Below are positions 6,001 through 63,045 of a stretch of 64,000 nucleotides of DNA, piece after piece. Made by a program: the position numbers and the translations under genes. Location: the IMG/VR virus record IMGVR_UViG_3300045988_124250. One strand, written 5' to 3'. This stretch comes from a virus. Numbering within the stretch: position 1 is the stretch's first letter; each line of letters starts with the position of its first letter. A model generated the notes under the pieces. That model was given only the letters and a program-made list of their open reading frames with translations. It was not told where the DNA came from and ran no database searches.

Positions 6001-7028
6001 AAGCTGAATATGAAAAGTAGGCGGCTGATTTAGAAAAATATTATGATGAACGTATGCAGCAAATTCATTAGTAGTATGAAGAAGTATTTAAAAACAGTAA
6101 AGATGCTAATGAAAAATTTGTAGCATATTATAAAGATAGTTCTGGCGCATTAGTTGAAAATTTCAATTAGACTACTTTAGCATTAAAAACAGGATATTCT
6201 ACATTAGATGAAATGTTTAACGCATTCTGGAAAAGCCATGATAATTATGTAGCTGATTCTAATAAATTACTTGATGATTATTTAAATAAAATTAAAGAAA
6301 TTAATAGTACAGCAGGTATTGAAGGAAGTTTTGCTGATGAAGCTTCTGGATGGTCAATCAAAATTACTGGTGAATCAAATAAAGCCGTTGCAGATATGGA
6401 AAAAATTGTTAAAAATGCAACAGATTCATTTAATGATGTTATTAAAGCAGCCAGTGATTGGGAATCTATTTATGTTTCTAAAATTGATAGTGCGATTAAG
6501 CGTAATGAAGCTTTAGTAAAAACTATGAATGAAATGGTGGCTGCTTTGTCTGGAATGTAGAGTATTGATTATAGTAAATATGAAAATGCTATTGATTCTC
6601 GTTCAACAGCGACTGCCAATAATATAATTAGTACTCAACATAATTCTGAGAGTTTTAATAAATCAGCTGGAATTCCTGATTATATTTCTCAATTCTCTTA
6701 TTTAGATATGTTAGATCAATTAGATATAAATAAACAAATTGAAGGTTGGATGAATAATAATGAATTAAATATTGATACTGCTTTAATGGATAGTTTAGAT
6801 ATTTCTACTATATTACAAAATATAGGATTAAATGTTTAGACTATTGTAAGCTATTTATCTAATCTTATTCCTTCTTCTCTTGGTGTTGATAGAATTGCAC
6901 AAGAATTTATGCAACAAGTTTCTATTAATGCTGATTTCCCGAATGTGACTGATAGTAATGAAATTATGGAAGCATTTGAAATGATGGAAAATGAAGCAAG
7001 TCAATATGCTAGTCGAAAGACTATTTAA
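1..7028 (+). CDS. Tape measure protein (5' partial, more than 2340 codons) containing about 45 in-frame TAG codons, which are read as sense
   Basis: Frame-3 ORF pieces 1380, 1761, 3996, 4476, 5745 and 6213 share one frame and are joined only by TAG. No TAA or TGA occurs until the TAA at 7026-7028. The protein is coiled-coil rich and has two hydrophobic Ala/Gly-rich membrane-like segments (about 1380-1560 and 1700-1930) typical of tape measure proteins. A hairpin terminator follows. Confidence 0.75.
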
Positions 7029-7032
7029 TTTA

Positions 7033-7066
7033 AATGGCGAGGTAATTAAACCTCGCCATTTTTTTA
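7033..7066 (+). terminator. Rho-independent terminator (aatggcgagg / cctcgccatt stem plus T-run)
   Basis: Perfect 10-bp inverted repeat followed by TTTTTTATT, directly after the tape-measure stop. Confidence 0.65.
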
Positions 7067-7140
7067 TTGGCCAAATATAAATAATAAAATAAGATTTTTT
7101 CTCAAAATTTATTAGAATATGAGAAAAAGGAGAGCGAATT

Positions 7141-35357: not shown

Positions 35358-35469
35358 TTGGGTAGTTCCAATTATCTAATATATAACTTTTTTGAAAAAT
35401 AGAGAGAAGAGATTAATTCTCTTCTCTCTATAAGGGAAAATTATTTTAGAAAGGAAGGTTTTCTAGTCT

Positions 35470-39039: not shown

Positions 39040-39044
39040 TAATA

Positions 39045-39077
39045 TGGCAGATAGTTTTTACTATCTGCCATTTTTTT
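39045..39077 (+). terminator. Rho-independent terminator (tggcagatag / ctatctgcca plus T7)
   Basis: 10-bp inverted repeat plus T-run. The sequence after it (TTTTTTTATTGGCC...) duplicates the post-terminator sequence at 7060. Confidence 0.65.
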
Positions 39078-39173
39078 ATTGGCCTAATTAAAATAATAAT
39101 ATAATTCAAATTTTTACAAATTAATAGAAATATTTTTATAAACTTTTTTTCAGAGAAGGGAGTTTACAAATTA

Positions 39174-42100
39174 ATGGCATTGTTTAAAATAAGCAAGGGC
39201 TTGTCAAAAAATTTAATGACAAATGTGCCATATGCAAAAGAAGGTTTTGCATATTTTACATCAGATGATGGTAAATTTTACATTGATATTGATGGTGATG
39301 GCACTAATGCATCTCCAGCTGTAATTGGAGATAATCGTATTCCTCTTAGTGCTTTAAGCACTGATTGGATTAAAGCTACTAAAATTGAAGATACAGAAAC
39401 TTATCCTATTTTAGCATTCAAAGTAGCGGACAATACTAAAAATTTAATTGAATTAAAATATGGTAGTATTGGTTATAAAGATGGAACATTAGTAATTCCT
39501 AATGTTGAAACAGGAAGTAAAGATGAAGTTTTAATTGAAAATAATGATGAAGGCTCAGCTCTAATTATTGATAATAAAGGCGCCGGCATTGGCATTAAAA
39601 TTATAAACACTGGTAAAGATTCATTAGTAAATAATTAGGGTATTAATATCAATGATAATATCCGCTTAAATATGAATGGCAGCGCATCATTTGAGGGAGA
39701 TGTCGTAATAGGTGGTACTTATATTTTTAAAGGTGGAACTGCTAATATTCTTGGCGCTAATAAAACAAATACTATAATTTCTAATTAGCTTACATTATAG
39801 GAAGGAGCTGTATTTGGCGGGGATGCTCAAAATGCTGGTTTAATGACTTGTGGTATTTGTGGTGTATCAGTACCAACAGATGATGGAGCTTGCGAAAAAG
39901 ATAATTTATATATTAATTATGATGGAGATAATTCTTATAAAGCTAGCCGTCAAGTAATCTTACAAGCTGGCGACGCAGGAAAAGATTATGGAAATCATTT
40001 GTATCAATATGCCGCAGCGCGTGGTGACGCAGTACATGATTGGTCATTAAATAATTTTTATATAAAGTCAGATATTGATAATAAATTAAATAATTTATTA
40101 GCCACTAATGACGCTATGGTATTTAAAGGTACTATTGGTGGAGACGCAGCTGCTACTATTCATGAATTACCAGCTAAACATAGTGCAGGTGAAACTTATC
40201 GCGTTTATGATATTAAAGGCGGTAATGATGGTAAATATCTTGGCAATGGTGAAGTTTGTGAAATCGGCGATTTAATTATTTGTATTAAAGATGGAACTAC
40301 TCATAGTGCTGGAGATTGGACTATTGTTCAAACTAATATTGATGGAGCAGTAATTAATACAGATGGCTCTTCTACTGATGGACATATTGCTATTTTTAGC
40401 GGAAATAAAGGTAGAACTATTAAAGATAGTGGTAAATCATTTAATGATTTGGCTATAGCAAATCACACTCATACTAAATTAGTTAATGATAAATATGCAG
40501 TAGATTTTAATGGAACATCACTATCACCGATTAATAATCCTCAAAATACAATAGATTTAGGTAATACATCAAATCCATGGCAAAATTTATATTTAACATC
40601 TGATATTAAATTTAAAGATAGCTCTGGAAATTGGAAAACATTAACAGAGAAATTGACTGGTAAATCAAATGTTGGACATAAACATACAATTGCAGATACT
40701 GATGGATTACAAACTGCATTAGACAATAAATCTAACACTGGTCACACTCATACTATTTCTAATATTACAGACTTACAAGATGTATTAGATAATAAAGCTG
40801 CTAAATCTCATAAGCATGAAATTTCTGATATTACAAATTTACAAAAAACATTAGAAGGTAAATCTGATACAGGACATAAACATGGAATTGCTGATATTAA
40901 TGGGCTACAAACTGCATTAGATGGTAAATCTGATACTGGTCATACTCATTAGATTGCGGCTAATGTTGATACTTCTAATTCAGAAGAAGGCGCTGTAATT
41001 AAATTAGAAGGTACTGGTGGCCTAAATGCAGTTAGCTATAAAGCCACTCACGCCGATAAAGGCCCTTCTATGGCGGCTGACGTTTCTTCCATTACTACTG
41101 CAAGTAACGTAAAAAAATCATTAGATGGCGAATTTGGTAAAACATTAGAATTTACCATCCCTCGTATTACTGTTGATAAATAGGGGCATGTTAATAAAAC
41201 CGTTGATGATAAAGTTTCAATTGTCTTACCTTCAGCTCCTACTATTGGAGATGGTGAATTAACGATTAAAGTTGGTAATGGAACCATAAAAGCTTCTGGA
41301 GATAAAACATTTACTGCAAATTAGGCGGCGAATACAGATATTACCCTACCAGTATATACTATTACTGAAACAAATACATTATTAAGCGGTAAAGCAAATA
41401 GTAGTCATACTCATAATTATGCAGGCTCTTCTTCTGCTGGAGGCCCTGCAACAAGCGCTGATAAATTAAATACTGATAATATTGGTAGTGAAAAAGCTCC
41501 AGTCTATTTTAAAGATGGAATACCAGTTGTCACTGGACAAACATTAGATAGAGATATTAGTGGTAATGCAGAGACTGCTACTATTGCAGGAAAAGTTGAG
41601 CATGCCCTAAGTATTAGTGTAGGTGGTACTCCAAAAGGTAGTTATGATGGTTCCGCAGCTAGAACAATCGATGTTAACGCGGCGGATTTAAAAATTTCTG
41701 GCGCATTAGTATATATTGGACGTGTAGCTACAAAGCCAACCAGTTCTCAAGTGACTCTTATTGACGGAACTACTATTACTGCTGAAGCTGGTAATGTTGT
41801 TATTTGCACTGGAGATAATAAAGAATATTTATATGATACAGATGGAAATTGGGTTGATTTAGGAAGTTCTACTTCATATGCATTAAAACCTCATATTCAT
41901 GGTAATATTAGTAGTGATGGTTATTTAACAAATGAAACTGGTGTAGTACAAACTAATTCTATAGTGTACTCAGATGCAGATGGAAAAATTAGTAAAGGCC
42001 CAACATTTGATACTACTAATACAACTAAAAGATTCCTCGCTGAAAATGGTAATTGGGAGTAGAGTAGTCATCATACTTCTGGGACGTGGAATGGATTAAC

Positions 42101-44183
42101 ATATACAGCTAAACCAGTTAATGGTGCAGGAGAGTTGAAATTTACTATACCCACTGGCACTGGAGCTACTTCAGTTGCTCTTGGTAATCATAATCATGAT
42201 AAGGTATATAAAAAGATTCAAACAGCAGTATCTAGTCCTGCAGCATCCAACACAGATATTTCATTTATTGATACAGTGTCATAGGATACTTAGGGTAAAA
42301 TTACTGCAACTAAAAAGACGGTAAGAGATGCTTCAGCTAGTCAATCTGGTATTGTATCTACTAAGACTCAAACATTTGCTGGAGAAAAAACCTTAAATGA
42401 TAAAACTCATTTCTCTAAAGGTTTTGATTTAAAAACTAGTAGTGGAAGTGCTTAGTTTAACGCAAGTACTGTAAGCGTTAGTAATGGTACTGATTATGTT
42501 GATTTATATGTTTCTACTGTTGGTGGCGGAAATGGTGATAAAACTAAGCCATTAGTATTAAATGCTAATGCAAATGGCTCTGGTAATGTAGGTATTGGAA
42601 TTACTTAGCCAACAGAGAAATTAGAAGTAAATGGTAATGTTAAAGCTACTCAGTTTAAAGGTAATGCTGACACAGCTGATAAATGGAAAACACCAAGAAC
42701 ATTTACTATTGGAACAGCTAAAAAAACTGTAGATGGTAGTTCTAATGTAAGTTGGACTCTAGATGAATTAGGAATAGCAACCTCTGGCCATAATCATGAT
42801 ACTGTTTATGTAAAAAAATCTGGTGATACAATGACTGGATTATTAAAAACAAATGGTAGTATTGAAAATCAAGGAGAAGCTAAATTTACTCATCCTGATT
42901 ATTGCCCAGACATTGAAGACACAGCGGAGAATATTGGCTGTGCATTTAAAGCTAGCCGTGGTCATTTTAATCAAATGAATGTAAATGAAATTTATTTACC
43001 TGCTACTACAACTACAAATTATGAAGGAAATAAAATTTCATTTAAAACCTATTCAGGTGGGAATAATGGCGCTTATGCTAATGTATCTGAAGTTGCTCAA
43101 ATTAATACAACTGGGTTAATAGTAGGCTCTTCTAGTATTGGTACTAATGGTTATATTGAAGGCACTTGGTTAAAAACTACCAATGCTGGAAATAAAGCAG
43201 GAGATTTTGCTACTATTGATAGTTCTGGATGGATTTATAAACGTACAGCAGCACAAGTTTTATCAGACATTGGAGCCGCATCAAGTTCACATAATCATGA
43301 CACTAATTATGTGAAAAAAACCGGTGACACAATGACTGGCCAATTAGCCATTGATAAAGCTGGATATGGATTCCGAGTAAATAATGGATCAACTGGTTAT
43401 ATTGAGCTATCTCGTGATAACGGTGGTGCATAGTTATATGGATTATGGGATTGTATTGCACAAAATTGGGTTATTTAGTGTGATGGAAATATTGGTATAC
43501 TAAATGGAAAAGTTCGAGTACCTGGCTTTTCAACTAGTTGGGTAGCCGGCCGTGATTCAGCTGTGGTTAAAATTTTTAGTTATAGTGGATATAATGCTAT
43601 AACATCAATGAAAACAACTAACGGCAGTTGGGAAAATGGAGTATATACTAATGATAGAATGTACTTTAATTATGTTCCAGACTCTAATTATAACGCTGGT
43701 ACAAACCAAGCGGCTCAAATATGGTTAGGGCCAGATGCTAGTTTACATGCTTCAGCAGTTTGGGGCGCAGTATGGAATGACTATGCTGAATGCCGTGAAG
43801 CAGATACTATTGAGCCAGGTAAATGCGTAATTGAAGTTGGTGATGATACTCTTATTACATCAACTGAACGCTTAATGCCGGGTGCGAATATTACATCTGA
43901 TACATTTGGTTTTTCTATTGGTGAAACTGAATAGGCAAAGACTCCAATAGCGGTAAGTGGACGTGTTCTTGCTTATCCCTATGAATCTCGTGAAGAATTT
44001 AAAAAGAATATTGGATGTCCAGTATGTTCTGGTCCTAATGGAACAGTTTCTATTATGACTGATGAAGAATATAGAAATAAAGGTTATTGCGCGATTGGTA
44101 CTATTTCAGCAGTTCCTGATTATGAAGAATGGGGAACGGGAAAAGTTAAAGTTAATGGGCGTGTATGGATTAAAGTATTTTAA
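39174..44183 (+). CDS. Long tail fibre protein (about 1669 codons, about 14 TAGs) with a tandem 22-aa His-x-His fibre repeat and a C-terminal domain shared with gene 38173
   Basis: ORF pieces 39174, 39843, 41751, 42831 and 43563 are all in frame 3 and linked only by TAG. Ends at TAA 44181-44183. The N-terminus carries the family anchor motif. Confidence 0.65.
40660..40949 (+). repeat. About 4.4 tandem copies of a 66-nt coding repeat (KS-x-TGH-x-H-x-I-x-DI-x-x-LQ-x-x-LD-x), a phage tail-fibre repeat
   Basis: Peptide repeats KSNVGHKHTIADTDGLQTALDN, KSNTGHTHTISNITDLQDVLDN, KAAKSHKHEISDITNLQKTLEG, KSDTGHKHGIADINGLQTALDG, KSDTGHTH. Confidence 0.8.
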
Positions 44184-44198
44184 TCTATAAATAAAAAA

Positions 44199-44245
44199 AT
44201 GGCGATTAAGAAAAACATTACAAGTTTTCTTAATCGCCATTTTTT
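44199..44245. terminator. Bidirectional rho-independent terminator between convergent genes
   Basis: 16-bp perfect inverted repeat atggcgattaagaaaa / ttttcttaatcgccat, flanked by an A-run and a T-run. Confidence 0.7.
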
Positions 44246-44271: not shown

Positions 44272-44604
44272 CTATTGAATAACTTTATAACCATATTCAT
44301 CAATTTTTTTATTAGAAAAATAAGTAATTGGTTTACCCAATTTTCTAGCATAACAAATTTCTTGATAACCAGTTTGTCCAATATATTCATTTTCACCGGT
44401 AATAAAATAAACGGCATCAGCCATGTTAATTTTATTTTTACTAGAGTTTAATAATCTGGTTTCTGTGTCTGATGGTAATACAATATTATCTGCATGAGCA
44501 AATACTTTAGGAGATAAAACAATATGTCCTTCGAGAGACAGGATTGCTCCTAATTTCTCGAAGGACTCTTTAAACCTAGTGCTTCCGCACAAACAAATAA
44601 TCAA
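44272..44604 (-). CDS. Hypothetical Rossmann-like protein (110 aa, TAG-free), possibly nucleoside-2-deoxyribosyltransferase-like
   Basis: Intact ORF with a TTG start and RBS GAGGG. The N-terminal motif MIICLCGSTRF is the only basis for the functional guess. Confidence 0.4.
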   Translation of the reverse strand: MIICLCGSTRFKESFEKLGAILSLEGHIVLSPKVFAHADNIVLPSDTETRLLNSSKNKINMADAVYFITGENEYIGQTGYQEICYARKLGKPITYFSNKKIDEYGYKVIQ

Positions 44605-45018
44605 TTAACCCTCAGTCTTTTTAGGTTGAGCTTTATTTATATTGACCTCAGATTCAATTTTAGTAGTAATATATCCACTTAAATCACCGAGTGCTTCATT
44701 AAGATACTCTTTGGCATCTTCAGTTAAAATGCCCATTACAGCATCATAAGTTTTCTTGAATGCTTCCAATTGAGCATTTTTATCGAATGCATTTTGACCT
44801 TTCAAACTTTCAACATATGTTTGATTTGTTGCTAATACACAATCAGTAATTGTTTTATTGAGCATGTCCATATATTTTTGAAGAGTTTCATCATTAGTTT
44901 TAGCCTTTAACTCATTAGTTTTAGATTGAATAAAACGAACCAAGAATAGAGAAACAGCTGTTAATACTGGGACAATAAGAATATTGAAAATTTGTTGTAG
45001 CATTTCTAGCCAATCCAT
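44605..45018 (-). CDS. Membrane-anchored protein (137 aa, TAG-free) with an N-terminal TM helix and a charged/coiled C-terminus; possibly holin-like or superinfection-related
   Basis: Start MDWLEMLQQIF with RBS GGAGGAAAAC. Preceded by a near-consensus TTGACT-17-TATAAT promoter. Confidence 0.5.
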   Translation of the reverse strand: MDWLEMLQQIFNILIVPVLTAVSLFLVRFIQSKTNELKAKTNDETLQKYMDMLNKTITDCVLATNQTYVESLKGQNAFDKNAQLEAFKKTYDAVMGILTEDAKEYLNEALGDLSGYITTKIESEVNINKAQPKKTEG

Positions 45019-45043
45019 AAGTTTTCCTCCTCTTCCATTTTTC

Positions 45044-45076
45044 TGTATTATAAAATAAATTTTTGGAAAAGTCAAT
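45044..45076 (-). promoter_or_regulatory. Sigma-A-type promoter for the minus-strand gene 44605-45018 (TTGACT, 17-bp spacer, TATAAT)
   Basis: Reverse complement reads TTGACTtttccaaaaatttatttTATAAT. The -35 is at 45070-45075 and the -10 at 45047-45052. Confidence 0.55.
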
Positions 45077-45150
45077 AAATAACAATTCCTATTTAATATA
45101 AAAAATATTTTAGATAGATTTACTGAAAATAACCAGGCAAAAATCGTTAG

Positions 45151-45243
45151 TTGGTCCATCTCAATTTACATTATATAATGGAGGAGCCCAGTAAAATTTT
45201 TTACACCACTGTAAAATTTTTTACTTCGCTGTAAAAAATTTGG
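45151..45243 (+). promoter_or_regulatory. Plus-strand promoter (TTGGTC, 16-bp spacer, TATAAT) followed by two identical palindromic operators GTAAAA-TT-TTTTAC 20 bp apart, plus a third degenerate copy
   Basis: -35 at 45151-45156 and -10 at 45173-45178. Operator copies at 45191-45204 and 45211-45224, with a third copy gtaaaaaattt at 45231. Confidence 0.5.
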
Positions 45244-45265
45244 AAAGCGAGGTATTTTCTAGAAA

Positions 45266-45706
45266 ATGTATCCAAACAGTTATAACTATTATCCTCAATC
45301 TCAAAATCCCTACCTGAATCGTTATATGCCTACTAACCAATATACTCAACAACTTCAAGGATTAAAAGGTCGGCCGGTCTCTAGTCTTGAAGAAGTTCGA
45401 GCAACAGGTATTGATTTTGACGGGTCGGTTTTCTATTTTCCAGACTTAGCAAACCGACGTATCTACACAAAACAAATTAATTTAGATGGAACAGCTTCAT
45501 TAAATATGTATGAATTAAAAGCTACTCCTCCTCCAACAGCATAGCCAGAAGCAACACCATCTGACGCTTCTTATGTAAGCAAAGAAGAATTTGAAAAAAC
45601 AGTCACAATTCTAGTTAATGAAATTAATAAACTGAAAGGAGCTAACGCAGATGAATCCAAACCAAATGATGAATCCAATGGCGATGCTACAGAATTTAAA
45701 TTCTAA
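45266..45706 (+). CDS. Hypothetical Tyr/Gln/Pro-rich protein (146 codons, 1 TAG)
   Basis: ORF 45266-45544 continues in frame through TAG to TAA at about 45704-45706. Confidence 0.4.
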
Positions 45707-45855
45707 TCCCTTATTCCAATAGGCACAAAGAATGGCTCAAGGAAAATCCGAAGCAGAGATTATTCAAATCGCACGCAATATCTGCAAGGAAAAGGGAATC
45801 AATTTTGATGAAGCTTATTCTATCTTCCAATCTCAATATAATTAGAAAGGAATGT
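45651..45855 (+). CDS. Small hypothetical protein (about 67 codons, 2 TAGs) overlapping the 3' end of gene 45266 in another frame
   Basis: RBS AAAGGAG with a 9-nt spacer and ATG at 45651. Protein MNPNQMMNPMAMLQNL...KEKGINFDEAYSIF. Ends at TAA 45853-45855 just before the next gene's RBS. Confidence 0.35.
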
Positions 45856-45862
45856 AAAAATT

Positions 45863-46543
45863 ATGGCTTTAACTGAAAACGGATTATCTCCTGCTGATAT
45901 CATGGCAATGACTCAGGGCGACCGCAACGATAATGGTTTTGGCGGCACTTGGACTTGGGTATTCTTCTTATTCTTCCTCCTGGCTTGGGGCGGTGGTGGA
46001 CTATTTGGTGGCGGTTCTGCTACTCAGGGCGCTTTAACTCGCGCTGAATTAGCCGATGGTCTAGGCCGTCAAGATATGTTCCGCAACCAAGATATGATTC
46101 TCACCGAAGTGAGTGCATTTGAGCGTGATGCAGCTAATCGCTGGGGTAATATTCAATATGAAGTAATGAAAGGGTTAAACGATAATCGTTTCGCCCAGCA
46201 AGAATGTTGTTGCACAACTAATCGCAATATTGACGCTGTGAGATATGAGAATGCTAAAAATACTTGTGATATTGTAAATACCAACAACTTAAATACTCGT
46301 GATATTTTAACTAATCAAAATGCTGGTGTTCAGCGCATTCTTGATTATTTAACTGCCGATAAAATTGAGAGTCTACGTACTGAATTACAGTCTGCCAACT
46401 TAACAATTCAGAATATGAATCAGACTACTGATTTACTAAACACTTTACGTCCTTATCCTACTCCTGCATATATTACTTGCAGTCCTTACACCGCAAATAG
46501 TATGTATAATGCATTTAGTGGATGCAGCGCCTGCGGTAATTAA
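45863..46543 (+). CDS. Membrane/Cys-rich hypothetical protein (226 aa, TAG-free, higher GC)
   Basis: RBS GAAAGGAATG. Has a Gly-rich TM segment (TWTWVFFLFFLLAWGGGG), a CCC motif and a C-terminal CSAC. Ends at TAA. Confidence 0.6.
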   Translation: MALTENGLSPADIMAMTQGDRNDNGFGGTWTWVFFLFFLLAWGGGGLFGGGSATQGALTRAELADGLGRQDMFRNQDMILTEVSAFERDAANRWGNIQYEVMKGLNDNRFAQQECCCTTNRNIDAVRYENAKNTCDIVNTNNLNTRDILTNQNAGVQRILDYLTADKIESLRTELQSANLTIQNMNQTTDLLNTLRPYPTPAYITCSPYTANSMYNAFSGCSACGN

Positions 46544-46600
46544 TCTATTGAGGGAGGAAATATCCTCCCTCTATTCTAACTAAGAAAGGAGTTCATACGA

Positions 46601-47023
46601 ATGAGTACTTGTTCAAATTGCTCTAATCCAATTTTAAAGACTACCTCTACAACTAGCTAGACTCTTGCTACGGGTAATCCTATTCCACTCCAGAATAATA
46701 TATTCCAAAGTGGTTGTGGTATTTCTCATATTGCAGGTAGTACTGCGATTAGTTTAACTCGAACCGGCACCTATTTAGTTGCGGTGACTGCAACTGGTAA
46801 TGCCGGCTCTGGCAACACATTTTCAGTCCAGGCTTATAACAATGGAACTGCCATTCCTGCTGCTATAGCCAGTTTAGTGGACCAAGGCACAGTTCATTTT
46901 ACTACATTAGTAAAAGTATTACCATCTTGCCGTTCTATAAATAACAATGCCAATTTGACATTTGTTAACACTGGTGCGATAACCTATTCAACTGTTGAAG
47001 TCGATATTGTAAAGGTTGGGTGA
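46601..47023 (+). CDS. Small Gly/Thr/Ala-rich protein (140 codons, 1 TAG); C-terminal domain reminiscent of BclA/C1q-like exosporium proteins
   Basis: RBS AAAGGAG. Sequence ...GTYLVAVTATGNAGSGNTFSVQAYNNGTAIP... Ends at TGA 47021-47023. Confidence 0.5.
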
Positions 47024-47028
47024 GTTGA

Positions 47029-47550
47029 ATGGATTGTCAAGAATATATGATTTCTATAATTAAACGTCAAACAGAGGGAGTAGTTTATCATGAAAATATG
47101 ACTGATTACTATCGTTTTTTATGTTTAGACAGTTTAAAAGAAATCCATTGTCATCAATCTTAGGAAGAATTAGAAACTCTTCAATGTACTAAAGATTGTT
47201 ATGCGAAAATATATTTTTCAATTCCACAGTTTGAAATGGAAAACACAACATTAATCCCAGCAGAATGGTATAGTAAAACATCTATGGATGTCACCAAAGG
47301 AGCTATTAAATCATTAAGTAAAGAGAGTCTCTACCACTGGCTCGATTGGGAGAAGGAGACATTGAGCATCTATAAGGAAGCTGCAATGCACTTCAAAGAA
47401 AATATGGCGTTTCATCAATTAAAAATAGCTAAGAAATTAATTAAATGTATTTCCGCAGAAATTTGTGAAATTGAAGGATTGATTACAGAAGGGTTAGCCT
47501 ACGATTTTAGCCCTGAATTTTTAAAATACTATTATAAAATAGACGAATAA
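47029..47550 (+). CDS. Hypothetical protein (173 codons, 1 TAG)
   Basis: ATG at 47029. ORF 47236-47550 is the C-terminal part of the same frame. Ends at TAA. A terminator follows. Confidence 0.45.
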
Positions 47551-47560
47551 ATTATTATAA

Positions 47561-47600
47561 GCCGAGAATTAAGTTTTATTTAATTCTCGGCTATTTTTTA
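47561..47600. terminator. Bidirectional rho-independent terminator (gccgagaattaa / ttaattctcggc)
   Basis: 12-bp inverted repeat flanked by T/A runs, placed between convergent transcription units. Confidence 0.7.
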
Positions 47601-48092
47601 TTCTTTATAATTAGATAAGCTATTTCTAAATTTCTATTCTACCATTTGGAATAGTTTATCTCCAGTGTGGTTCCCACCCATTTTATTATAGGTTTCATGG
47701 TCACTCTCAATTTCTTCAAACTCATCGAGAGTAATTTCATGGTCTGGTTTTAATAATTTACGACAATCATCTTTAAATTGTTTACCCTAAATAGATAAAA
47801 CGCCACCACTCACAACATCTATTTTACCATTTATATTATAAATTTCTTGTTTTAAACTATCGGTTTCTTGTTTAGATAAATCTCGCTCGGTTTGCAATAA
47901 ACTAGCTGTGGTTTTATGCTCATCACTAATTTTGCTTTTTAATTCTTTAATAATTTTTTCATGAGCTTCATCTTCTAAACGCTATTTTTCTTTTTTATAT
48001 AAATTATAAAAATATTTAGCTAAACCCGTAAGTCCTAATGCGATTATACCAAATAAAAACTCAAGCCAATATTTGGCGATAAAATCAAGCAT
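47598..48092 (-). CDS. Membrane-anchored coiled-coil protein (164 codons, 3 TAGs)
   Basis: RBS AAAGGAG plus ATG at 48092. N-terminal TM helix MLDFIAKYWLEFLFGIIALGL, then a coiled coil. All in-frame stops are TAG until TAA at 47598-47600. Confidence 0.5.
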
Positions 48093-53169: not shown

Positions 53170-53766
53170 TTAATAAGTTGTGTCCAGATGCTCCGGCCAC
53201 CGAGACAGGAACAATGCTAAATCTTTATATATATATTCTAATTCCGCAGGAGTATTATTTACATATAACCAATTACATAAATCATCAGCATCTTCAAAAT
53301 CGAGTTTATCTGTTTTATATCGACGAATAATTTCATCAATATCCGGGTTAGCCTCTCGATTTAACTATCTAATTAATCGAATCTTATCATCTGCGTGGAT
53401 ATAAACGATAATTAAATTTACTCGTTTATCATGTAATAGAATCTCTGCGCCTTCTGGATTAAATACTCCTACATTGATAGCGCCCTCTTTGACTGATTCA
53501 ATTCCTGTGCCATAGCACCATTCATTAAAAACAGTAGCTTCAAACATTTGATTCTATAAAATCATTTCAGCAAATTTTTCTGCTGAAATAAAATGGTAGT
53601 TAATACCATCCACTTCTTTTTCTCTTGGAGGTCTTGAAGTATAACTTATAATTTCATGTAGAGGTAATTTACCATTATAATAATGCTTTGTATCATCAAT
53701 TAGTTTACGGAGAATGGTATCCTTACCACTCCCCGCTTCACCAATTAATGCTAATATATTATACAT
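53170..53766 (-). CDS. Guanylate-kinase-like nucleoside monophosphate kinase (about 198 codons, 2 TAGs)
   Basis: P-loop GEAGSGKDT and a GMP-kinase-like FISAEKFAEMI...YGT block. Junction stops at 53554 and 53365 are both TAG. Ends at TAA 53170-53172. Confidence 0.65.
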
Positions 53767-56700
53767 TAATTAGCTCCTCCATTATATCTCTCATCTTTTA
53801 ATTCAATATCGCCATTATCTAAAATTTTATCAATTTTATATAATTGATGACCGCCAGAGCTGGCATATTTCTTCGCTATAAAATTATCACCTTGACGAAT
53901 ACCTTGAACAGCAATCATATTACCACGATTAAACCAGCTTTTTTCCATTACTTTTTTAGTACCATCAGCTTGTTTTTCTGAAATTTGTTTATCAAATAAT
54001 GAGAAATATTCTTTTCTAAATTTAACTTCAACAACTCCAGAAGTAGTGAGTAATGTAACTGTTGACTTAGTTTTATTTTTAGCAATACAAGTCCCACAAA
54101 TCTTGTGTAATTTATACATAGTAATCGTTTTATTACCCTTAGAAAAAACTTTATCAACAATTGGTTCTTCTGGTAGATGGAAGAAATCGACAAATCCATA
54201 TTTACTATTATTTACATGGGCTAACTCATGCTCATGATAATAGAAACACAAGACTTCCATCTCCCACGCAGAAATAGATTTAGATGCATATTTATCCCAA
54301 TCATCTTTAAATATTTTATTATTTAATTTATTTAAAATAACATCTTTATTTTCTGTAATCCAAGCCCGGAATGTATCCATATATTTTTGATATACTTTAT
54401 CCCAAGCTTTAGAGTCTAAGAGACAACAACTACCAATTAAATCATCACAACCAATTTCAGTTAGGAAATTAATTGCTCGTTCATCAACTTTATACACATT
54501 ACCATCTTTACAAACGGCTTTTAAATATCTATTAAATTCATAAACTCGTCTTGCCATCACATATTCATCTTTATCTTCTGGCAATAAATTATAACGAATT
54601 AGAGTTGCTAAATTTTGTAATGTTAAACGAGATTTTTTATCGCAAGTTTCCCAAATATACCAAATCATTAAATCTTTGCGGTCCATCATTTCATCAAATG
54701 CGCCACTTTTAATTAATGAAATCATTGCTTGTTTACTAGGTTTAATACGATAATAAAAATCTTTTACTGATATATATGGACGATTTGCAATAATATTATT
54801 AATCAAATCATCCCCAACATTCAATAATCCTTTTAAACCAAATAGAATTTGATTATTTTCAACATCAGGCGCAAACCCAAATTTAGCTTTATTAATATCA
54901 GCTAAACTGACTTTAATACCAGCAGACTGAATATCTCCAATCGCTTTTGCAATTTTACCATAATCAGTACTAGCCACTTTTTTATTTTTTGGTTTATTCT
55001 CCATTACATCTTCTGGAGAAACACCACAATATTCTTCGCCAGAATAATCATAATCTTCATCGCTCATTTCTTCTGGCTCATTTTCTAATGCTCCACTATT
55101 TACAATCAAACAAGCACAATTCCAATAAATAGGATTGAAATTAATTGCCAAATAAATCATTTGAATTGCAACAAATGAGTAAGGAAGAGAATGATTTAAA
55201 CTAAATGCATATCCCAATTGAGGAGCGATTGCATTTTCCCAAAAATATTCAGCATTATGTTCATTAGTAAACTTGCTAAATACTTGTTCTTTTAGTTGAG
55301 GAATTTTTGCCATTTGTTTTTTGGCAACGACTTTACGTGCGCTATTTGCTTCGCCTAATGTAAATCCAGCGACATCCATAAGAATTTCCATCATTTGCTC
55401 TTGAAGCGGACAGCATCCATAATATCTATCACAATGCTTGTGCATTTTTTCAATCATTTCTTCTGGTAAATGATTATCTTTCATCTCTTTATCAAAAACT
55501 TCAATGCCTGCTTTTTGAATTCGATAATATCTATCTTGCTGACTTTCTTTGCCCTTTTCACTCATTAGACGCATCATAGCATTTGCCGCTGTCATTTCCA
55601 TAGGGTCTTTTGGCTTCAATTTTTTAGCAATAGCTAAACCTACACCAGTAGAAAACTGGAATACATCAAGAATGTCTCCGGCTGCCAGATGTTCCCAAAT
55701 GCGCTTGTCAGAAGTATCTATTACTTCTGGATGAAGATATTTATTATAAAAATCACGTAGACCAATATCAGGAATTTGATTATCCTCTTTTAATAAATTA
55801 TAACATTGAATAATCTTATCGCAAGCTTCTGTTACCAAGAAGTCATATTTAGTATCTCCAGCGGCTTCAGCTTTATGCAAATCCCAACAAGTAATTAAAT
55901 CACCACTGGGGGTTTTCATAAATGATGCAGTTTCAAATGGGTCTTCTCCATATAGAATAACGCCAGAAGCATGAGAAGAACGTTTATTAACGATACCCTC
56001 AATGTATACAATAATATCCAATAGACCAGGATACTGATTTACTTTTTGAATAAATGTGGTAACTGGTTTTCTGTCTTTATCAGGATTACCATTTACTACA
56101 TCTTTCATCGGCCATAGAAATCCACGTTCTTGCGGGATTAATGAAGACATAAATTGCGCTTCATCTACATCAATGCCATTTGGATAATCATCACTTCTAT
56201 AACCACGACAAGCAGTTAAAATCGCTTGCTTTGTTCCTTCAGTTCCAAACGTTGCAACTTGAATTAAACCTAATGTTCCGCGCTCTTTACGAATAGCACT
56301 AAAAATTGCAGGGCGTTTACTTGGTGCTAGGTCAATATCAATATCAGGTAATTCAGCGCGCTCTAAGTTCAAGAAACGCCAATATGGTAATCCCCAACGA
56401 ATTGGATCTAGCTGAGTAATTCCCAGTAAATAATTAGATAAGAAACCAGTTGCTGAGCCTCGACCGGGGCCAACAATACTTCCGCACTCCCAGAACAAAT
56501 CAATATAATGTTTAAATGTATTAAAATAAGCAAACAAACAATCTTCAAGTTTTTCGCCAATATTTTTAATTACATTAGCTTCAGTTTCAAGCCGAGCAAT
56601 ATATGTTTCATTTTCATATAATTGTTTTTCTTGTAATGCTTTAATACATTCATTTATCCAATATCGTTCTTGAATATCATCACTATTAATCAGTGAACAA

Positions 56701-57737
56701 ATAACAGGATATTTTTCATACCAATCTTTTGGAATAAATCCCTTTTTATAGTCTAATACTTCTACTCTTGGAATTTGTTGTTTGCGCTCAAGAGAATAGA
56801 ATTTTATTTTCTTTTGAATTTCTAATGTATTATCAAAAATCCAATTCATAATTTCTTGAGGAGTTTTATTTTTATCCCAAGTATCCATATATGGTAGCAT
56901 TAATTCTTCTACTTCATCGCTATTCATTACATAAGCAAATTCATAGAATGAATCAACTTCACGCTCGCCATCTTTAGAATTTAAATAGGCTTTATGAATT
57001 GGTCTATCTTTCTTTGTTAAATAATGAGCGTCAGTTCCAACTACCATTTTTAAATCATATGCTTTTGCTACTTGATAAATTTTTTGATTTACTACAAGTT
57101 GGTCTTTCATGGTAGACGGAGCGCACTCTAAATAAAAATCATCTTTACCAAAAACATTTATACAAAATTCAATAAATTTAACAATATTATTATAATAAAT
57201 GCTTTTAGTTTGTGTATCGCCTACAACTTCGGCTTCATACATTGGATACAAATTAGAACCTAATTCACCACCAATACAAGCTGTTGTTGCGATTACATGC
57301 CCTTTATATTGTACCATTACATTTTTCAATTCAGATTTTAATGTTGGCACTCGTTCCATTTTTCTATCAATATAAGAATTAATCCAAGCAATTGAACTTA
57401 ATTCTTTTAATGCTTTATATCCAATTTCATCTTTTGCCAATAAAATAAAATGATAATACTTTTGACCGCAATCTCTTGTATCAGTCAAATAAATTTCATT
57501 GCCTAATGCGATAGTAAAATCAGGATGCTCTTTTAAAAAATCTTTTGCAAATTGATTAACTTCCATATGAGCAGATAAACATTCGTGATCAGTAATTGCT
57601 ATACCACTTAATCCTAATTTTTCTGCTGTTTTAATCAACTCTTCTGGTCTATTAATAGAATCTAATAAACGCAGATTTGAATAGTGAGTATGGTTGTGTA
57701 CGCCAAAATATGGTCGCATAATCCACCTCTTTCTCAT
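53766..57737 (-). CDS. dnaE: DNA polymerase III alpha subunit, DnaE-type with N-terminal PHP domain (1323 aa, no TAG)
   Basis: Uninterrupted 1323-aa ORF. PHP motif GVHNHTHYS...ITDHE, a polymerase core and a C-terminal OB fold. RBS AGAGGTGGA. Confidence 0.85.
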   Translation of the reverse strand: MRKRWIMRPYFGVHNHTHYSNLRLLDSINRPEELIKTAEKLGLSGIAITDHECLSAHMEVNQFAKDFLKEHPDFTIALGNEIYLTDTRDCGQKYYHFILLAKDEIGYKALKELSSIAWINSYIDRKMERVPTLKSELKNVMVQYKGHVIATTACIGGELGSNLYPMYEAEVVGDTQTKSIYYNNIVKFIEFCINVFGKDDFYLECAPSTMKDQLVVNQKIYQVAKAYDLKMVVGTDAHYLTKKDRPIHKAYLNSKDGEREVDSFYEFAYVMNSDEVEELMLPYMDTWDKNKTPQEIMNWIFDNTLEIQKKIKFYSLERKQQIPRVEVLDYKKGFIPKDWYEKYPVICSLINSDDIQERYWINECIKALQEKQLYENETYIARLETEANVIKNIGEKLEDCLFAYFNTFKHYIDLFWECGSIVGPGRGSATGFLSNYLLGITQLDPIRWGLPYWRFLNLERAELPDIDIDLAPSKRPAIFSAIRKERGTLGLIQVATFGTEGTKQAILTACRGYRSDDYPNGIDVDEAQFMSSLIPQERGFLWPMKDVVNGNPDKDRKPVTTFIQKVNQYPGLLDIIVYIEGIVNKRSSHASGVILYGEDPFETASFMKTPSGDLITCWDLHKAEAAGDTKYDFLVTEACDKIIQCYNLLKEDNQIPDIGLRDFYNKYLHPEVIDTSDKRIWEHLAAGDILDVFQFSTGVGLAIAKKLKPKDPMEMTAANAMMRLMSEKGKESQQDRYYRIQKAGIEVFDKEMKDNHLPEEMIEKMHKHCDRYYGCCPLQEQMMEILMDVAGFTLGEANSARKVVAKKQMAKIPQLKEQVFSKFTNEHNAEYFWENAIAPQLGYAFSLNHSLPYSFVAIQMIYLAINFNPIYWNCACLIVNSGALENEPEEMSDEDYDYSGEEYCGVSPEDVMENKPKNKKVASTDYGKIAKAIGDIQSAGIKVSLADINKAKFGFAPDVENNQILFGLKGLLNVGDDLINNIIANRPYISVKDFYYRIKPSKQAMISLIKSGAFDEMMDRKDLMIWYIWETCDKKSRLTLQNLATLIRYNLLPEDKDEYVMARRVYEFNRYLKAVCKDGNVYKVDERAINFLTEIGCDDLIGSCCLLDSKAWDKVYQKYMDTFRAWITENKDVILNKLNNKIFKDDWDKYASKSISAWEMEVLCFYYHEHELAHVNNSKYGFVDFFHLPEEPIVDKVFSKGNKTITMYKLHKICGTCIAKNKTKSTVTLLTTSGVVEVKFRKEYFSLFDKQISEKQADGTKKVMEKSWFNRGNMIAVQGIRQGDNFIAKKYASSGGHQLYKIDKILDNGDIELKDERYNGGAN

Positions 57738-62506: not shown

Positions 62507-62577
62507 AGAATAGTCACCCTCCTTTCATTAAACCACTACCCATATATTTTAATTTTTTTATTAAATTTATTATTTAT

Positions 62578-62890
62578 ATCAGTCCTTCTCTGGATAATAA
62601 TATTCAAACCCATGATATGGAAAACAAGTAGTACAAGGTTTAATAATAGTATCGACAATATCATCAGCAATTTCACGGTCAATATAAGAAATATTACACC
62701 TGTATCCTCGGCTATTAGTATTACCTCGTAGAGCTCGCCAATTATCTCCATTTTCATAAGTAATTGTATATTCAGTTTTAGTTTTAACTATTTGGACAGG
62801 ATTAATATGAAGCTATTCATATTTTGTCGCTATTCGATCTAATTGTTTTACTGCTGAAATCCAACGATTACCCCAAACGATACCATTCAT
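62578..62890 (-). CDS. Hypothetical protein (about 104 codons, 1 TAG)
   Basis: Protein-like composition (MNGIVWGNRWISAVKQLDRIATKYE...CTTCFPYHGFEYYYPEKD) in a frame different from the Ile/Leu-only ORF 62536-62757. Confidence 0.35.
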
Positions 62891-63045
62891 ATTGTGTTCC
62901 TTTCTTTATTATTTTTCCACAATTGGGACACTTATCATATTCTTCTTTAAAACTTTTATAACATAATGGACATTGATATCTTATATCTGGGAATGGGTCT
63001 AAATCTGCGGCTGCATTATATTTATTCCAATGTAATTCGCTCATT
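62868..63045 (-). CDS. Small zinc-ribbon protein (58 aa; CPLC...CPNC)
   Basis: MSELHWNKYNAAADLDPFPDIRYQCPLCYKSFKEEYDKCPNCGK. The start overlaps the primase stop. Confidence 0.45.

What the first reader, a model, noticed from the sequence alone, without database searches (positions are those of the whole stretch)
45021..47560. Accessory island between two bidirectional terminators, controlled by a promoter with twin palindromic operators
This + strand cassette is embedded between - strand units and flanked by terminators at 44199-44245 and 47561-47600. A TTGGTC-16-TATAAT promoter is followed immediately by two identical GTAAAA-TT-TTTTAC palindromes spaced 20 bp apart (45191-45204 and 45211-45224) plus a third degenerate copy, a classic repressor roadblock. 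Genes include a TAG-free, GC-richer membrane/Cys-rich protein (45863-46543) and a BclA/C1q-like Gly/Thr-rich protein (46601-47023). A divergent strong TTGACT-17-TATAAT promoter drives two TAG-free - strand genes. The cassette resembles a moron or lysogeny-associated switch region whose products may act on the host cell surface.
Basis: partly seen in the sequence, partly recalled or inferred. Interest (0 to 1): 0.6.

Follow-up and report, generated by a model that had tools for sequence, protein, structure and literature searches.

The report
Widespread phage cassette with operator-like repeats
A five-gene operon bounded by terminators in a large gut phage that reads TAG as an amino acid is one copy of a very widespread, uncharacterised phage gene module, and its twin palindromes fit a pattern of evenly spaced repeat sites found in front of this module in many phages.

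Summary
Both terminators, the divergent near-consensus promoter, a TTGGTC-17-TATAAT promoter-like site (spacer 17, not 16), two identical GTAAAATTTTTTAC palindromes 20 bp apart, a third partial copy and the GC-richer TAG-free gene are all present.

The twin 14-mers are the only such pair in 64 kb and are invariant in 10 lineage variants.

This is not a lysogeny switch or a recent insertion. The operon keeps the same position in all relatives down to 63% identity.

Its genes form a module, A-B-C-(D or Y)-E, conserved in order in more than 100 diverse phage loci; 489 IMG/VR loci encode a C relative.
- C is a membrane-anchored 135-residue helix with conserved cysteines.
- D is a BclA/C1q-like head.
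- E is ferritin-like.
- A and B are novel.

In about 40% of loci a small sigma-region-4-like regulator gene lies just upstream. The region upstream of gene A is enriched for direct repeats spaced 11 or 20-22 bp apart.

I read the twin palindromes as this lineage's binding sites for such a regulator. An RNA stem-loop is the main rival. The module's function is unknown; my best guess is a disulfide-linked, envelope-anchored stalk-and-head fibre.

The parts
44194..44245 (.). Bidirectional intrinsic terminator. It ends the + strand tail-fibre gene (39174-44183) and the - strand holin unit.
   Evidence: Folds at -25 kcal/mol on both strands, z -8.0 and -6.4, flanked by an A-run and a T-run; sequence.
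44272..44604 (-). TAG-free gene for a DUF4406 / nucleoside 2-deoxyribosyltransferase-like protein (110 aa).
   Evidence: Pfam DUF4406 E 2e-4, exactly at the cutoff; phrog_355 E 1.5e-4. In close relatives a 62-64 aa gene takes its place.
44605..45018 (-). Holin (137 aa), TAG-free.
   Evidence: phrog_13712 holin, E 9e-33.
45047..45075 (-). Near-consensus sigma-70-type promoter TTGACT-17-TATAAT for the holin unit.
   Evidence: 11 of 12 matches in the scan; invariant in close relatives.
45151..45179 (+). Promoter-like site TTGGTC-17-TATAAT for the cassette.
   Evidence: Coordinates and spacer. TATAATGGAGG is also present in the 80%-identity relative L021. The -35 is weak (3 of 6) and was not listed by the scan.
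45191..45204 (.). Palindrome copy 1, GTAAAA-TT-TTTTAC.
   Evidence: invariant in 10 unique lineage sequences.
45211..45224 (.). Palindrome copy 2, identical to copy 1, 20 bp start to start.
45231..45241 (.). Third, partial copy in the opposite orientation (GTAAAAAATTT), again 20 bp on.
   Evidence: the repeat finder pair I4: 11 nt, 100% complementary to 45214-45224. The relative L021 has a single similar GTAAAAAATTAC.
45266..45706 (+). Gene A (146 aa, one in-frame TAG). It has a Tyr/Asn/Gln/Pro-rich disordered N-terminus, a conserved core of about 50 residues (one helix plus three strands), and a C-terminal helix.
   Evidence: phrog_21718, function unknown. At least 5803 homologues, all unnamed. 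AF2 core pLDDT 70-89 with no PDB fold match.
45651..45857 (+). Gene B (68 aa, two TAG codons). It has a Met/Asn/Pro/Gln-rich N-terminus and a small helical domain, and it overlaps the end of A in another frame.
   Evidence: Conserved next to A in CPD1, bajarodcaudo virus 2 and many other loci. Called in the same position in relatives.
45863..46543 (+). Gene C (226 aa, TAG-free, GC 41%). It has an N-terminal Gly-flanked hydrophobic anchor, a single helix of about 135 residues carrying a conserved CCC..C cluster, and a Pro/Cys-rich tail.
   Evidence: phrog_16490, function unknown. 4279 homologues and 1011 clusters at 50% identity. AF2 model. Conserved Cys columns. GC values.
46550..46567 (+). 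GC-rich hairpin between C and D with no T-run. It may be an intra-operon attenuator or an RNA stabiliser.
   Evidence: Listed as terminator-like in the scan; sequence. Not followed up.
46601..47023 (+). Gene D (140 aa, one TAG at a conserved Gln position). It is a BclA C-terminal-domain / C1q-TNF-like jelly roll with a short N-terminal CxxC peptide.
   Evidence: phmmer to 9H38 (F-BclA-CTD), E 3e-4 over the full length. Family profile: 9H38 6.7e-9, B. anthracis BclA 1.5e-4, C1q-related factor 8e-3. Identity of 9H38 from PMC12357932.
47029..47550 (+). Gene E (173 aa, one TAG), a ferritin-like four-helix-bundle protein.
   Evidence: The family profile (A6) matches prokaryotic ferritins, E 2.6e-6, across nearly the whole bundle. 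Same family as CPD1 gp043.
47560..47592 (+). Intrinsic terminator of the cassette. The same hairpin faces the converging - strand gene 47598-48092.
   Evidence: 15-bp stem plus ATTTTTT. -19.8 kcal/mol, z -6.7 on the + strand; -17.7 kcal/mol on the - strand with no T-run.

Best explanation
The region is a terminator-bounded late operon. It carries one copy of a widespread, uncharacterised phage gene module, A-B-C-(D or Y)-E.

**Shown**
- The module's gene order is conserved in more than 100 diverse phage and prophage loci.
- C is an N-terminally anchored protein with one very long helix and conserved cysteines.
- D belongs to the BclA-CTD/C1q family.
- E is ferritin-like.
- In roughly 40% of loci the gene just upstream of A encodes a 60-100 aa sigma-70-region-4-like helix-turn-helix protein.
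- The DNA in front of gene A is enriched for direct repeats spaced one or two helical turns apart.

**Inferred**
- The two identical palindromes and the third partial copy, all in 20-bp register, are this lineage's binding sites for a dimeric DNA-binding regulator of the module.
- They lie at about +5 to +65, between the -10 and the ribosome-binding site. Occupancy would therefore block or pause RNA polymerase, holding the operon off until the right stage.
- The regulator would be encoded outside the 64-kb window.
- In-frame TAG codons in A, B, D and E add a translational gate that restricts full-length products to the stage when TAG is decoded.

**Most speculative**
- The products would assemble a cysteine-linked stalk-and-head fibre. 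A C coiled coil anchored in the cell membrane would carry a trimeric BclA-like D head at its Cys-rich tip.
- A, B and E would act as accessory or assembly factors.
- The fibre would alter the infected cell's envelope.
For: **Synteny and spread**
- same position in all jumbo relatives.
- the order A-B-C-(D|Y)-E recurs in genome and IMG/VR loci.
- thousands of homologues, and 489 IMG/VR loci encoding a C relative.

**Proteins**
- C: AF2 model; conserved Cys columns.
- D.
- Y family: invariant Cys3.
- E.

**Regulator linkage**
- 30 of 150 upstream-neighbour ORFs match phrog_36, and 17-19 match sigma-factor PHROGs.
- Sequences and gaps are; individual confirmations.

**Phased repeats**
- 30% of 70 non-redundant regions upstream of A have z>2, against 10% of 144 other intergenic regions from the same loci (Fisher P 7e-4).
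- Periods peak at 11 and 20-22 bp; examples are.
- L140 has twin palindromes ATACTTTTAGTAT 22 bp apart.
- Lineages with related regulators share ATACTT-type repeats.

**The window's sites**
- They are a unique pair and invariant, while the spacers between them vary.
- The two spacers (ACCACT and TTCGCT) differ at 4 of 6 positions although the 14-mers are identical. This argues for selection on the 14-mer rather than a fresh duplication.

**Late timing**
- A, B, D and E carry in-frame TAG codons.
- The TAG in D sits on the family's conserved Gln.
Against: - No helix-turn-helix or sigma-region-4-like gene was detected in the window.
- No other copy of the palindrome occurs in the window.
- In other lineages the repeats lie upstream of the -10, which is activator geometry. 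Here they lie downstream of it.
- The sites are absent from relatives at 63-76% identity, and only one partial copy exists at 80%.
- The same bases can form RNA hairpins. Relatives carry unrelated hairpins, some with G.U pairs, right after a -10-like element.
- The transcription start is not mapped, and the -35 is weak.
- The fibre model rests on domain identities and conserved cysteines only. No complex was modelled.
- The one fusion of a C-like domain to a tail-fibre-like protein (P0197) comes from a single 2.9-kb contig.
Confidence: 0.4

Rival explanations
1. The palindromes act at the RNA level. Copies 1 and 2 pair into one interrupted 14-bp 5'-UTR stem-loop, or copy 2 pairs with copy 3 in an alternative perfect 11-bp hairpin. 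This stem-loop would protect the mRNA 5' end or modulate access to the ribosome-binding site.
For: - Predicted fold -19.3 kcal/mol, z -2.2.
- A perfect 11-bp alternative hairpin (pair I4).
- Relatives L011, L022, L024 and L136 have unrelated hairpins immediately after a -10-like element in the same place. Two of these include G.T positions that pair only as G.U in RNA.
- A similar 'TATATAAC plus hairpin' lies upstream of gene 35470 in the window.
Against: - The stems are almost pure A-U.
- The z-score is modest, and 8 of 200 shuffles fold as well.
- Exact identity of two self-complementary 14-mers and the 20-bp register are not needed for a hairpin.
- The module-wide 11/22-bp phasing points to DNA binding.
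- One natural spacer variant would break the proposed anti-SD pairing without compensation.
- No Rfam family matches.
Confidence: 0.25
2. The module is a lysis or egress accessory. C would act like a spanin or fusogen (membrane anchor plus long coiled coil) working with the adjacent holin.
For: - The holin gene is divergently adjacent in the window.
- In crAss-like phage cr1_1 the C homologue sits between a putative holin and a transpeptidase-domain gene.
- In Dulem virus 36 the module follows the receptor-binding protein, where lysis cassettes usually lie.
- C has an anchor plus a 135-residue helix.
Against: - In C. perfringens phages the module lies about 3 kb beyond the amidase-holin pair, among early-type genes.
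- C. perfringens has no outer membrane to fuse.
- No lipoprotein partner was seen.
- This reading explains neither the BclA-like head nor the ferritin-like protein.
Confidence: 0.12
3. The products are virion parts, such as head or tail fibres with a BclA-like tip, rather than cell-envelope structures.
For: - The genes carry TAG codons like the late genes, and the cassette lies next to the tail-fibre genes.
- The module lies between portal and capsid genes in bajarodcaudo virus 2.
- P0197 fuses a tail-fibre-like coiled coil to a C-like C-terminal domain.
- GC3 of B and C is raised in about 80% of loci. I read this as a sign of high expression, which is inference.
Against: - C has a conserved hydrophobic anchor, which is unusual for a tailed-phage virion protein.
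- The module has its own regulator and occupies non-structural positions in many phages.
- P0197 is a single short contig.
Confidence: 0.13
4. The repeats have no function. They are a neutral tandem duplication in AT-rich DNA, or iterons of a replication origin at the point where gene orientation switches.
For: - The sites are lineage-specific.
- AT-rich direct repeats lie nearby (family D1).
- Cumulative GC skew turns at about 44.2 kb.
Against: - The 14-mers are identical although their spacers have diverged, and they show 0 of 28 variable positions.
- Chance expectation is about 0.025 such pairs per 64 kb.
- Phased repeats are specifically enriched in front of this module in unrelated phages.
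- The skew turn is explained by the flip in gene orientation.
Confidence: 0.1

Closest known systems
BclA / F-BclA C-terminal domain (C1q-TNF-like trimeric head of Bacillus exosporium and endospore-appendage fibres; PDB 1WCK, 9H38; Sleutel et al. 2025, PMC12357932)
   Same: The D family profile matches F-BclA-CTD (6.7e-9), BclA (1.5e-4) and C1q-related factor (8e-3) over the jelly-roll domain. D also has a short Cys-containing N-terminal peptide, and cysteine-bearing connector peptides are described for several endospore-appendage components in that paper.
   Different: D has no collagen-like GXX stalk and no exosporium leader. It is phage-encoded and always follows a separate coiled-coil gene (C). 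In about half of the loci an unrelated-looking Cys-rich beta protein (Y) with no PDB match takes its place.
Phage operator sites bound cooperatively by dimeric repressors (lambda-type operators; my own knowledge)
   Same: Identical inverted-repeat sites in helical register, next to a promoter in a divergent control region.
   Different: No repressor gene is adjacent or anywhere in the window. The sites lie wholly downstream of the -10. The cassette is a late operon, not an immunity region.
Small phage late-gene activators with a sigma-region-4-type helix-turn-helix (RinA/ArpU-like; PHROGs 36, 248, 1740, 3512)
   Same: 60-100 aa proteins of this type sit immediately upstream of the module in about 40% of loci. 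They are followed by a terminator and a 90-150 bp gap carrying phased repeats and a -10-like element.
   Different: Here they precede a five-gene accessory module rather than the terminase and structural operon. None is present in the window.
Morons (autonomous promoter-gene-terminator units in phage genomes; my own knowledge)
   Same: Own promoter-like site and terminator, distinct composition, and different genomic contexts in different phages.
   Different: The cassette has five co-conserved genes, is vertically conserved in this phage clade, and carries late-type TAG codons. There is no evidence of expression from a prophage.
i-spanin Rz (N-terminal membrane anchor plus periplasmic coiled coil with intermolecular disulfides; my own knowledge)
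   Same: C has an anchor, a long helix and conserved cysteines, and it lies next to holin genes in two phages.
   Different: No sequence similarity was found and no outer-membrane lipoprotein partner is present. The module also occurs in phages of C. perfringens, which has a single membrane.
Prokaryotic ferritins (e.g. PDB 5LS9, 1S3Q)
   Same: The E family profile aligns across nearly the whole four-helix bundle (E 2.6e-6).
   Different: Only part of the ferroxidase-site pattern is conserved in the alignment (H21, E108 and E144 are nearly invariant). The protein is not recognised by Pfam or NCBIfam.

Membership tests
Repressor-operator control region | Two or more similar inverted-repeat sites at or next to a promoter | tested here: met
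   Two identical 6-2-6 palindromes plus a partial third, 11 nt downstream of TATAAT.
Repressor-operator control region | A cognate DNA-binding regulator encoded by the element | tested here: not met
   No match in the 64-kb window to a profile of the module-linked sigma-region-4-like regulators. The cassette and flanking proteins have no HTH family hits. About two thirds of the ~198-kb genome lies outside the window and was not searched.
Repressor-operator control region | Sites conserved under selection | tested here: met
   0 of 28 variable positions against 39 of 227 in the rest of the intergenic region, among 10 unique sequences. However, the sites are lineage-specific.
Repressor-operator control region | Protein binding and repression demonstrated | not testable with these tools
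   Needs EMSA, footprinting or reporter assays.
Moron / recently acquired island | Own promoter and terminator between conserved phage genes | tested here: met
Moron / recently acquired island | Presence/absence polymorphism among otherwise syntenic relatives | tested here: not met
   The cassette is present at the same position in all relatives from 94% down to 63% identity. Only the D slot varies: it is absent in L011 and Y-type in L022.
Moron / recently acquired island | Atypical composition caused by recent transfer | tested here: inconclusive
   GC3 is 0.32 against 0.12-0.20 in most other genes, and GC skew is about 0. However, B and C have raised GC3 in about 80% of 52 and 113 loci respectively, so the bias is intrinsic to those families.
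BclA-CTD / C1q-TNF-like domain (gene D) | Sequence-profile match across the jelly-roll domain | tested here: met
   9H38 6.7e-9, BclA 1.5e-4, C1q-related factor 8e-3; single sequence 3e-4.
BclA-CTD / C1q-TNF-like domain (gene D) | Collagen-like GXX repeat stalk as in full-length BclA | tested here: not met
   D is 140 aa, made of a 20-residue N-terminal peptide plus the domain, with no GXX repeats.
BclA-CTD / C1q-TNF-like domain (gene D) | Trimeric jelly-roll structure | not tested
   No structure prediction was run for D; both prediction jobs went to C and A.
Ferritin-like superfamily (gene E) | Profile match over the four-helix bundle | tested here: met
   E 2.6e-6 to 5LS9 and many other ferritins.
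Ferritin-like superfamily (gene E) | Complete ferroxidase-centre residues | tested here: inconclusive
   H21, E108 and E144 are nearly invariant, but the ExxH histidine is not conserved in the alignment.
Spanin (gene C) | N-terminal membrane anchor plus coiled-coil ectodomain | tested here: met
   AF2 model: helix 31-41, then helix 61-195 with pLDDT up to 96.
Spanin (gene C) | Partner outer-membrane lipoprotein gene embedded in or adjacent to it, and a host with an outer membrane | tested here: not met
   The neighbours are A, B, D/Y and E, none of which was seen to carry a lipoprotein signal. The family occurs in C. perfringens phages.
Known RNA families (5' UTR) | Match to an Rfam covariance model | tested here: not met
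   Only a chance miRNA-model hit, on the terminator.
Known anti-phage defence systems | Match to PADLOC models | tested here: not met
   No meaningful hit for A to E or Y.

The most novel reading that the evidence does not exclude
The A-B-C-(D/Y)-E module is a previously unrecognised, very widespread phage system. Under a dedicated mini sigma-like regulator, it would build a membrane-anchored, cysteine-cross-linked 'split BclA' fibre (coiled-coil stalk C plus C1q-like head D or Y, with a ferritin-like partner) on infected cells or virions. This would be a phage counterpart of exosporium and endospore-appendage tip fibres. Lineage-specific, helically phased operator arrays such as the twin palindromes here would control it.
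Probability: 0.2. Interest if true: 0.75.

Novelty: new variant of a known kind. Interest (0 to 1): 0.5.

Why it matters
The control region itself is an ordinary kind of feature. It does point to something larger.

The gene set behind it is a five-to-six-gene module with thousands of homologues in gut phages and prophages. It has no Pfam, NCBIfam or PADLOC match for A, B, C or Y (D and E have only below-threshold hits there) and no function assigned in PHROGs.

The carriers range from 30-50-kb phages to ~200-kb TAG-recoded phages, and they include culturable Clostridium perfringens phages.

If the module builds a surface fibre or alters the envelope, it would be a common and overlooked way for phages to change their hosts' surfaces.

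The link between a mini sigma-like regulator and phased repeats gives a testable regulatory code. The TAG codons add a case where stop-codon recoding may gate an accessory operon.

Tried and rejected
- **Small contigs as mini-genomes.** The 4-7-kb 'Bacteriophage sp.' records carrying C are unverified linear scaffold fragments, so this idea was dropped.
- **Spore-coat or exosporium cargo.** Tyr-rich A, BclA-like D and ferritin-like E suggested it. But relatives of C lie on a 2.5-Mb Dialister contig and a 546-kb Phascolarctobacterium contig (Negativicutes), and on contigs binned with Treponema and Gastranaerophilales, so a spore-specific role is unlikely. Binning of phage contigs is unreliable, so this is only weakly rejected.
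- **E as an Erv-type sulfhydryl oxidase.** There is no conserved CxxC, and the family matches ferritins instead.
- **The GC-rich gene as a mark of recent transfer.** The raised GC3 is intrinsic to the B and C families.
- **A regulator in the window.** None was found.
- **Other genomic copies of the twin site.** A scan of IMG/VR found only the same locus in 5 contigs of the same phage lineage.
- **Fold search for A.** It gave no PDB match below E 0.2 and only uncharacterised viral homologues.
- **Fold search for C.** Not run, because a single long helix would give meaningless matches.
- **Homologue search for E.** It returned only 8 close relatives, so E was analysed with an alignment built from the fetched loci instead.
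- **P0197 context.** The contig is too short to be informative.
- **Literature search for the two PHROG numbers.** It found nothing.


Full report
**Context**

The window is 30% GC, and TAG is read as a sense codon in it. The giant + strand genes from 12 to 44183 carry up to 49 in-frame TAGs each, whereas TAG-free ORFs such as the DNA polymerase III alpha gene lie on the - strand. No tRNA gene is present.

The polymerase is 40% identical over 99% of its length to YorL of SPbeta-like Bacillus phages. A Firmicutes host is therefore likely.

Contigs of the same phage in IMG/VR reach ~198 kb.

The finding sits where gene orientation switches, between the late + strand block and the - strand replication block.

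**Checking the observation**

- **Left terminator.** 44194-44245 is a 20-bp-class hairpin with an A-run before it and a T-run after it. It folds at -25 kcal/mol on either strand.
- **Right terminator.** 47560-47592 has a 15-bp stem followed by ATTTTTT on the + strand.
- **Divergent promoter.** TTGACT-17-TATAAT matches the consensus at 11 of 12 positions. It drives a holin (phrog_13712, E 9e-33) and a borderline DUF4406-like gene.
- **Cassette promoter-like site.** TTGGTC lies at 45151-45156 and TATAAT at 45174-45179, with a spacer of 17 rather than 16. Its -35 is weak.
- **Palindromes.** GTAAAATTTTTTAC occurs at 45191 and 45211 and nowhere else in the window with up to one mismatch. A third element, GTAAAAAATTT at 45231, is the exact reverse complement of part of the unit and keeps the 20-bp register.
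- **Chance.** This is the only pair of identical 14-mers 14-30 bp apart in the window. Only 2% of simulated 64-kb sequences have any such pair.
- **Conservation.** Among 10 unique sequences of the lineage, none of the 28 palindrome positions varies, against 39 of 227 positions elsewhere in the intergenic region. The two spacers differ from each other and vary between genomes.

**The genes**

Reading TAG as Gln gives five genes. The TAG in D falls on the family's conserved Gln.

| Gene | Coordinates | Length |
|---|---|---|
| A | 45266-45706 | 146 aa |
| C | 45863-46543 | 226 aa |
| D | 46601-47023 | 140 aa |
| E | 47029-47550 | 173 aa |

- **Family searches.** None has a match above threshold in Pfam or NCBIfam. 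PHROGs lists A and C as families of unknown function.
- **C.** It has more than 4000 homologues and 1011 clusters at 50% identity. Its AF2 model shows a short hydrophobic helix (31-41) flanked by Gly runs, one continuous helix from 61 to 195 (pLDDT up to 96), and a Pro/Cys-rich tail. The CCC..C cluster and a C-terminal Cys are nearly invariant.
- **D.** It matches the F-BclA C-terminal domain (PDB 9H38, identified through PMC12357932). As a family profile it also matches B. anthracis BclA and C1q-related factor.
- **E.** As a family profile it matches prokaryotic ferritins across the bundle (E 2.6e-6).
- **A.** It has a disordered Tyr/Asn/Gln/Pro-rich N-terminus and a conserved core of a helix plus three strands. 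The core has no PDB fold match. At least 5803 homologues exist, all unnamed.

**Not a local island but a conserved module**

The cassette sits at the same position in close relatives (94% identity in C) and in relatives at 80, 76 and 63%. In each it lies between the tail-fibre/holin genes and the replication genes.

Only the D slot changes. It is missing in L011 and holds a different Cys-rich protein in L022.

Beyond this clade, the order A-B-C-(D or Y)-[small ORF]-E recurs in many places:
- Clostridium perfringens phages (CPD1, PMQ04, HMD-PC1);
- Dulem virus 36, directly after the receptor-binding protein;
- bajarodcaudo virus 2, between the portal and capsid genes;
- many of the 73 genome-collection loci and 80 IMG/VR loci fetched.

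A homologue of C alone sits in a crAss-like phage, three genes downstream of a putative holin.

In total, 489 IMG/VR loci encode a C relative.

E and CPD1 gp043 belong to one family. The Y proteins share an invariant Cys at position 3.

Downstream neighbours are heterogeneous. PADLOC has no match.

**Composition**

C has GC 41% and GC3 0.32, against GC3 of 0.12-0.20 in most other genes (0.25 in one). B, D and E are also raised.

The cassette's GC skew is near zero, unlike the flanking late genes.

However, C and B exceed their neighbours' GC3 in 82% of 113 loci and 81% of 52 loci respectively. The bias therefore belongs to the gene families. My inference is codon selection for high expression. 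It does not date an insertion here.

**Regulation**

This is the most informative comparative result.

- **Upstream regulator.** The gene just upstream of A is, in roughly 40% of loci, a 60-100 aa protein matching the region-4 end of sigma-factor/transcription-regulator PHROGs. A terminator and a 90-150 bp gap follow it.
- **Enrichment for repeats.** Regions upstream of A are enriched for short direct repeats relative to other intergenic regions of the same loci: 30% against 10% with z>2 (P 7e-4), and 17% against 4% with z>4.
- **Spacing.** The repeat periods pile up at 11 and 20-22 bp, which is one or two turns of the DNA helix.
- **Examples.** L037 has five TCCAAAAT units at 11 bp. L136 and L122 have three GTATAC units. 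L140 has twin palindromes ATACTTTTAGTAT 22 bp apart.
- **Shared motifs.** Lineages with related regulators share related motifs.

Helical phasing is a property of protein-DNA recognition. I therefore read the window's three sites in 20-bp register as the same kind of element.

Two things differ here. No such regulator gene is in the window. The sites also lie between the -10 and the ribosome-binding site, which suggests repression or pausing rather than activation.

**The RNA alternative**

The same bases can fold. Copies 1 and 2 form an interrupted 14-bp stem (-19.3 kcal/mol, z -2.2). Copy 2 and the third element form a perfect 11-bp hairpin.

Relatives carry unrelated hairpins directly after a -10-like element, two of them with G.U positions.

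A 'TATATAAC plus hairpin' also precedes gene 35470.

No Rfam family matches.

I cannot exclude a 5'-UTR stem-loop. I rank it second because the stems are almost pure A-U and because neither the exact duplication nor the 20-bp register is needed for a hairpin.

**Function**

The function is not established.

The conserved cysteines stand out: at the tail of C and in its CCC cluster, and at the N-termini of D and Y. Together with a 135-residue helix behind a membrane anchor and a trimer-type BclA/C1q head, they suggest a stalk-and-head fibre joined through cysteines. A, B and the ferritin-like E would be accessory factors.

One protein, P0197, fuses a tail-fibre-like coiled coil to a C-like C-terminal domain. 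It comes from one 2.9-kb contig.

Lysis-accessory and virion-fibre readings remain open.

TAG codons in A, B, D and E imply that full-length products appear only once TAG is decoded, which means late in infection. The general idea comes from published work on recoded phages, cited here from my own knowledge.

**Verdict**

The control region is a new example of a familiar kind of element.

The module behind it is widespread and uncharacterised, and it deserves experimental work in the culturable C. perfringens phages that carry it.

Noticed in passing
window 1-64000: TAG is used as a sense codon throughout the late genes (for example 49 in-frame TAGs in gene 12-7028). Several - strand genes are TAG-free. 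No suppressor tRNA or any other tRNA lies in the window.
   Followed up: partly
window 53766-57737 (-): The TAG-free DNA polymerase III alpha gene is 40% identical over 99% of its length to YorL of SPbeta-like Bacillus phages. This hints at a distant SPbeta-like replication module and a Firmicutes host.
   Followed up: partly
window 7029-7140 and 39040-39173: Two late intergenic regions share the pattern 'terminator hairpin, T7, ATTGGCC(A/T)AAT...'. The cassette's -35-like TTGGTC resembles this TTGGCC. It may be a phage-specific promoter element.
   Followed up: no
window 35390-35450: TATATAAC followed by a 12-13-bp hairpin (AGAGAGAAGAGA / TCTCTTCTCTCT) lies upstream of gene 35470. Relatives L011 and L022 have the same layout upstream of their cassettes.
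   Followed up: partly
window 46550-46567: A GC-rich hairpin (GAGGGAGGA..CCTCCCTC) without a T-run lies between genes C and D. It could lower D-E expression relative to A-B-C, or stabilise the upstream RNA.
   Followed up: no
window 47598-48092 (-): The converging gene encodes a membrane anchor plus coiled coil with three in-frame TAGs and a weak Rz-like spanin PHROG hit (E 0.007). It could be part of a split lysis system together with the holin at 44605-45018.
   Followed up: no
window 44605-45075 (-): The holin gene is TAG-free and has a near-consensus sigma-70 promoter. This is unexpected if recoding is meant to delay lysis functions.
   Followed up: no
113 loci with C and 52 with B, drawn from L001-L180: C and B genes have higher third-position GC than their neighbours in about 80% of loci (mean +0.066). 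D and Y are slightly lower than their neighbours.
   Followed up: yes
L020 9048-10796: In a 76%-identity relative, a GIY-YIG homing-endonuclease gene sits next to the anaerobic ribonucleotide reductase gene nrdD. In L014 the nrdD region is also disrupted.
   Followed up: no
window 62507-63043: My simple ORF list has a 537-bp stretch with no called gene on the - strand block. It probably holds small or TAG-containing genes.
   Followed up: no
L063, L046, L082 (upstream of gene A): In some lineages the phased repeats lie before the regulator gene's terminator hairpin, so a terminator stands between the repeats and gene A. This layout would suit antitermination control.
   Followed up: no
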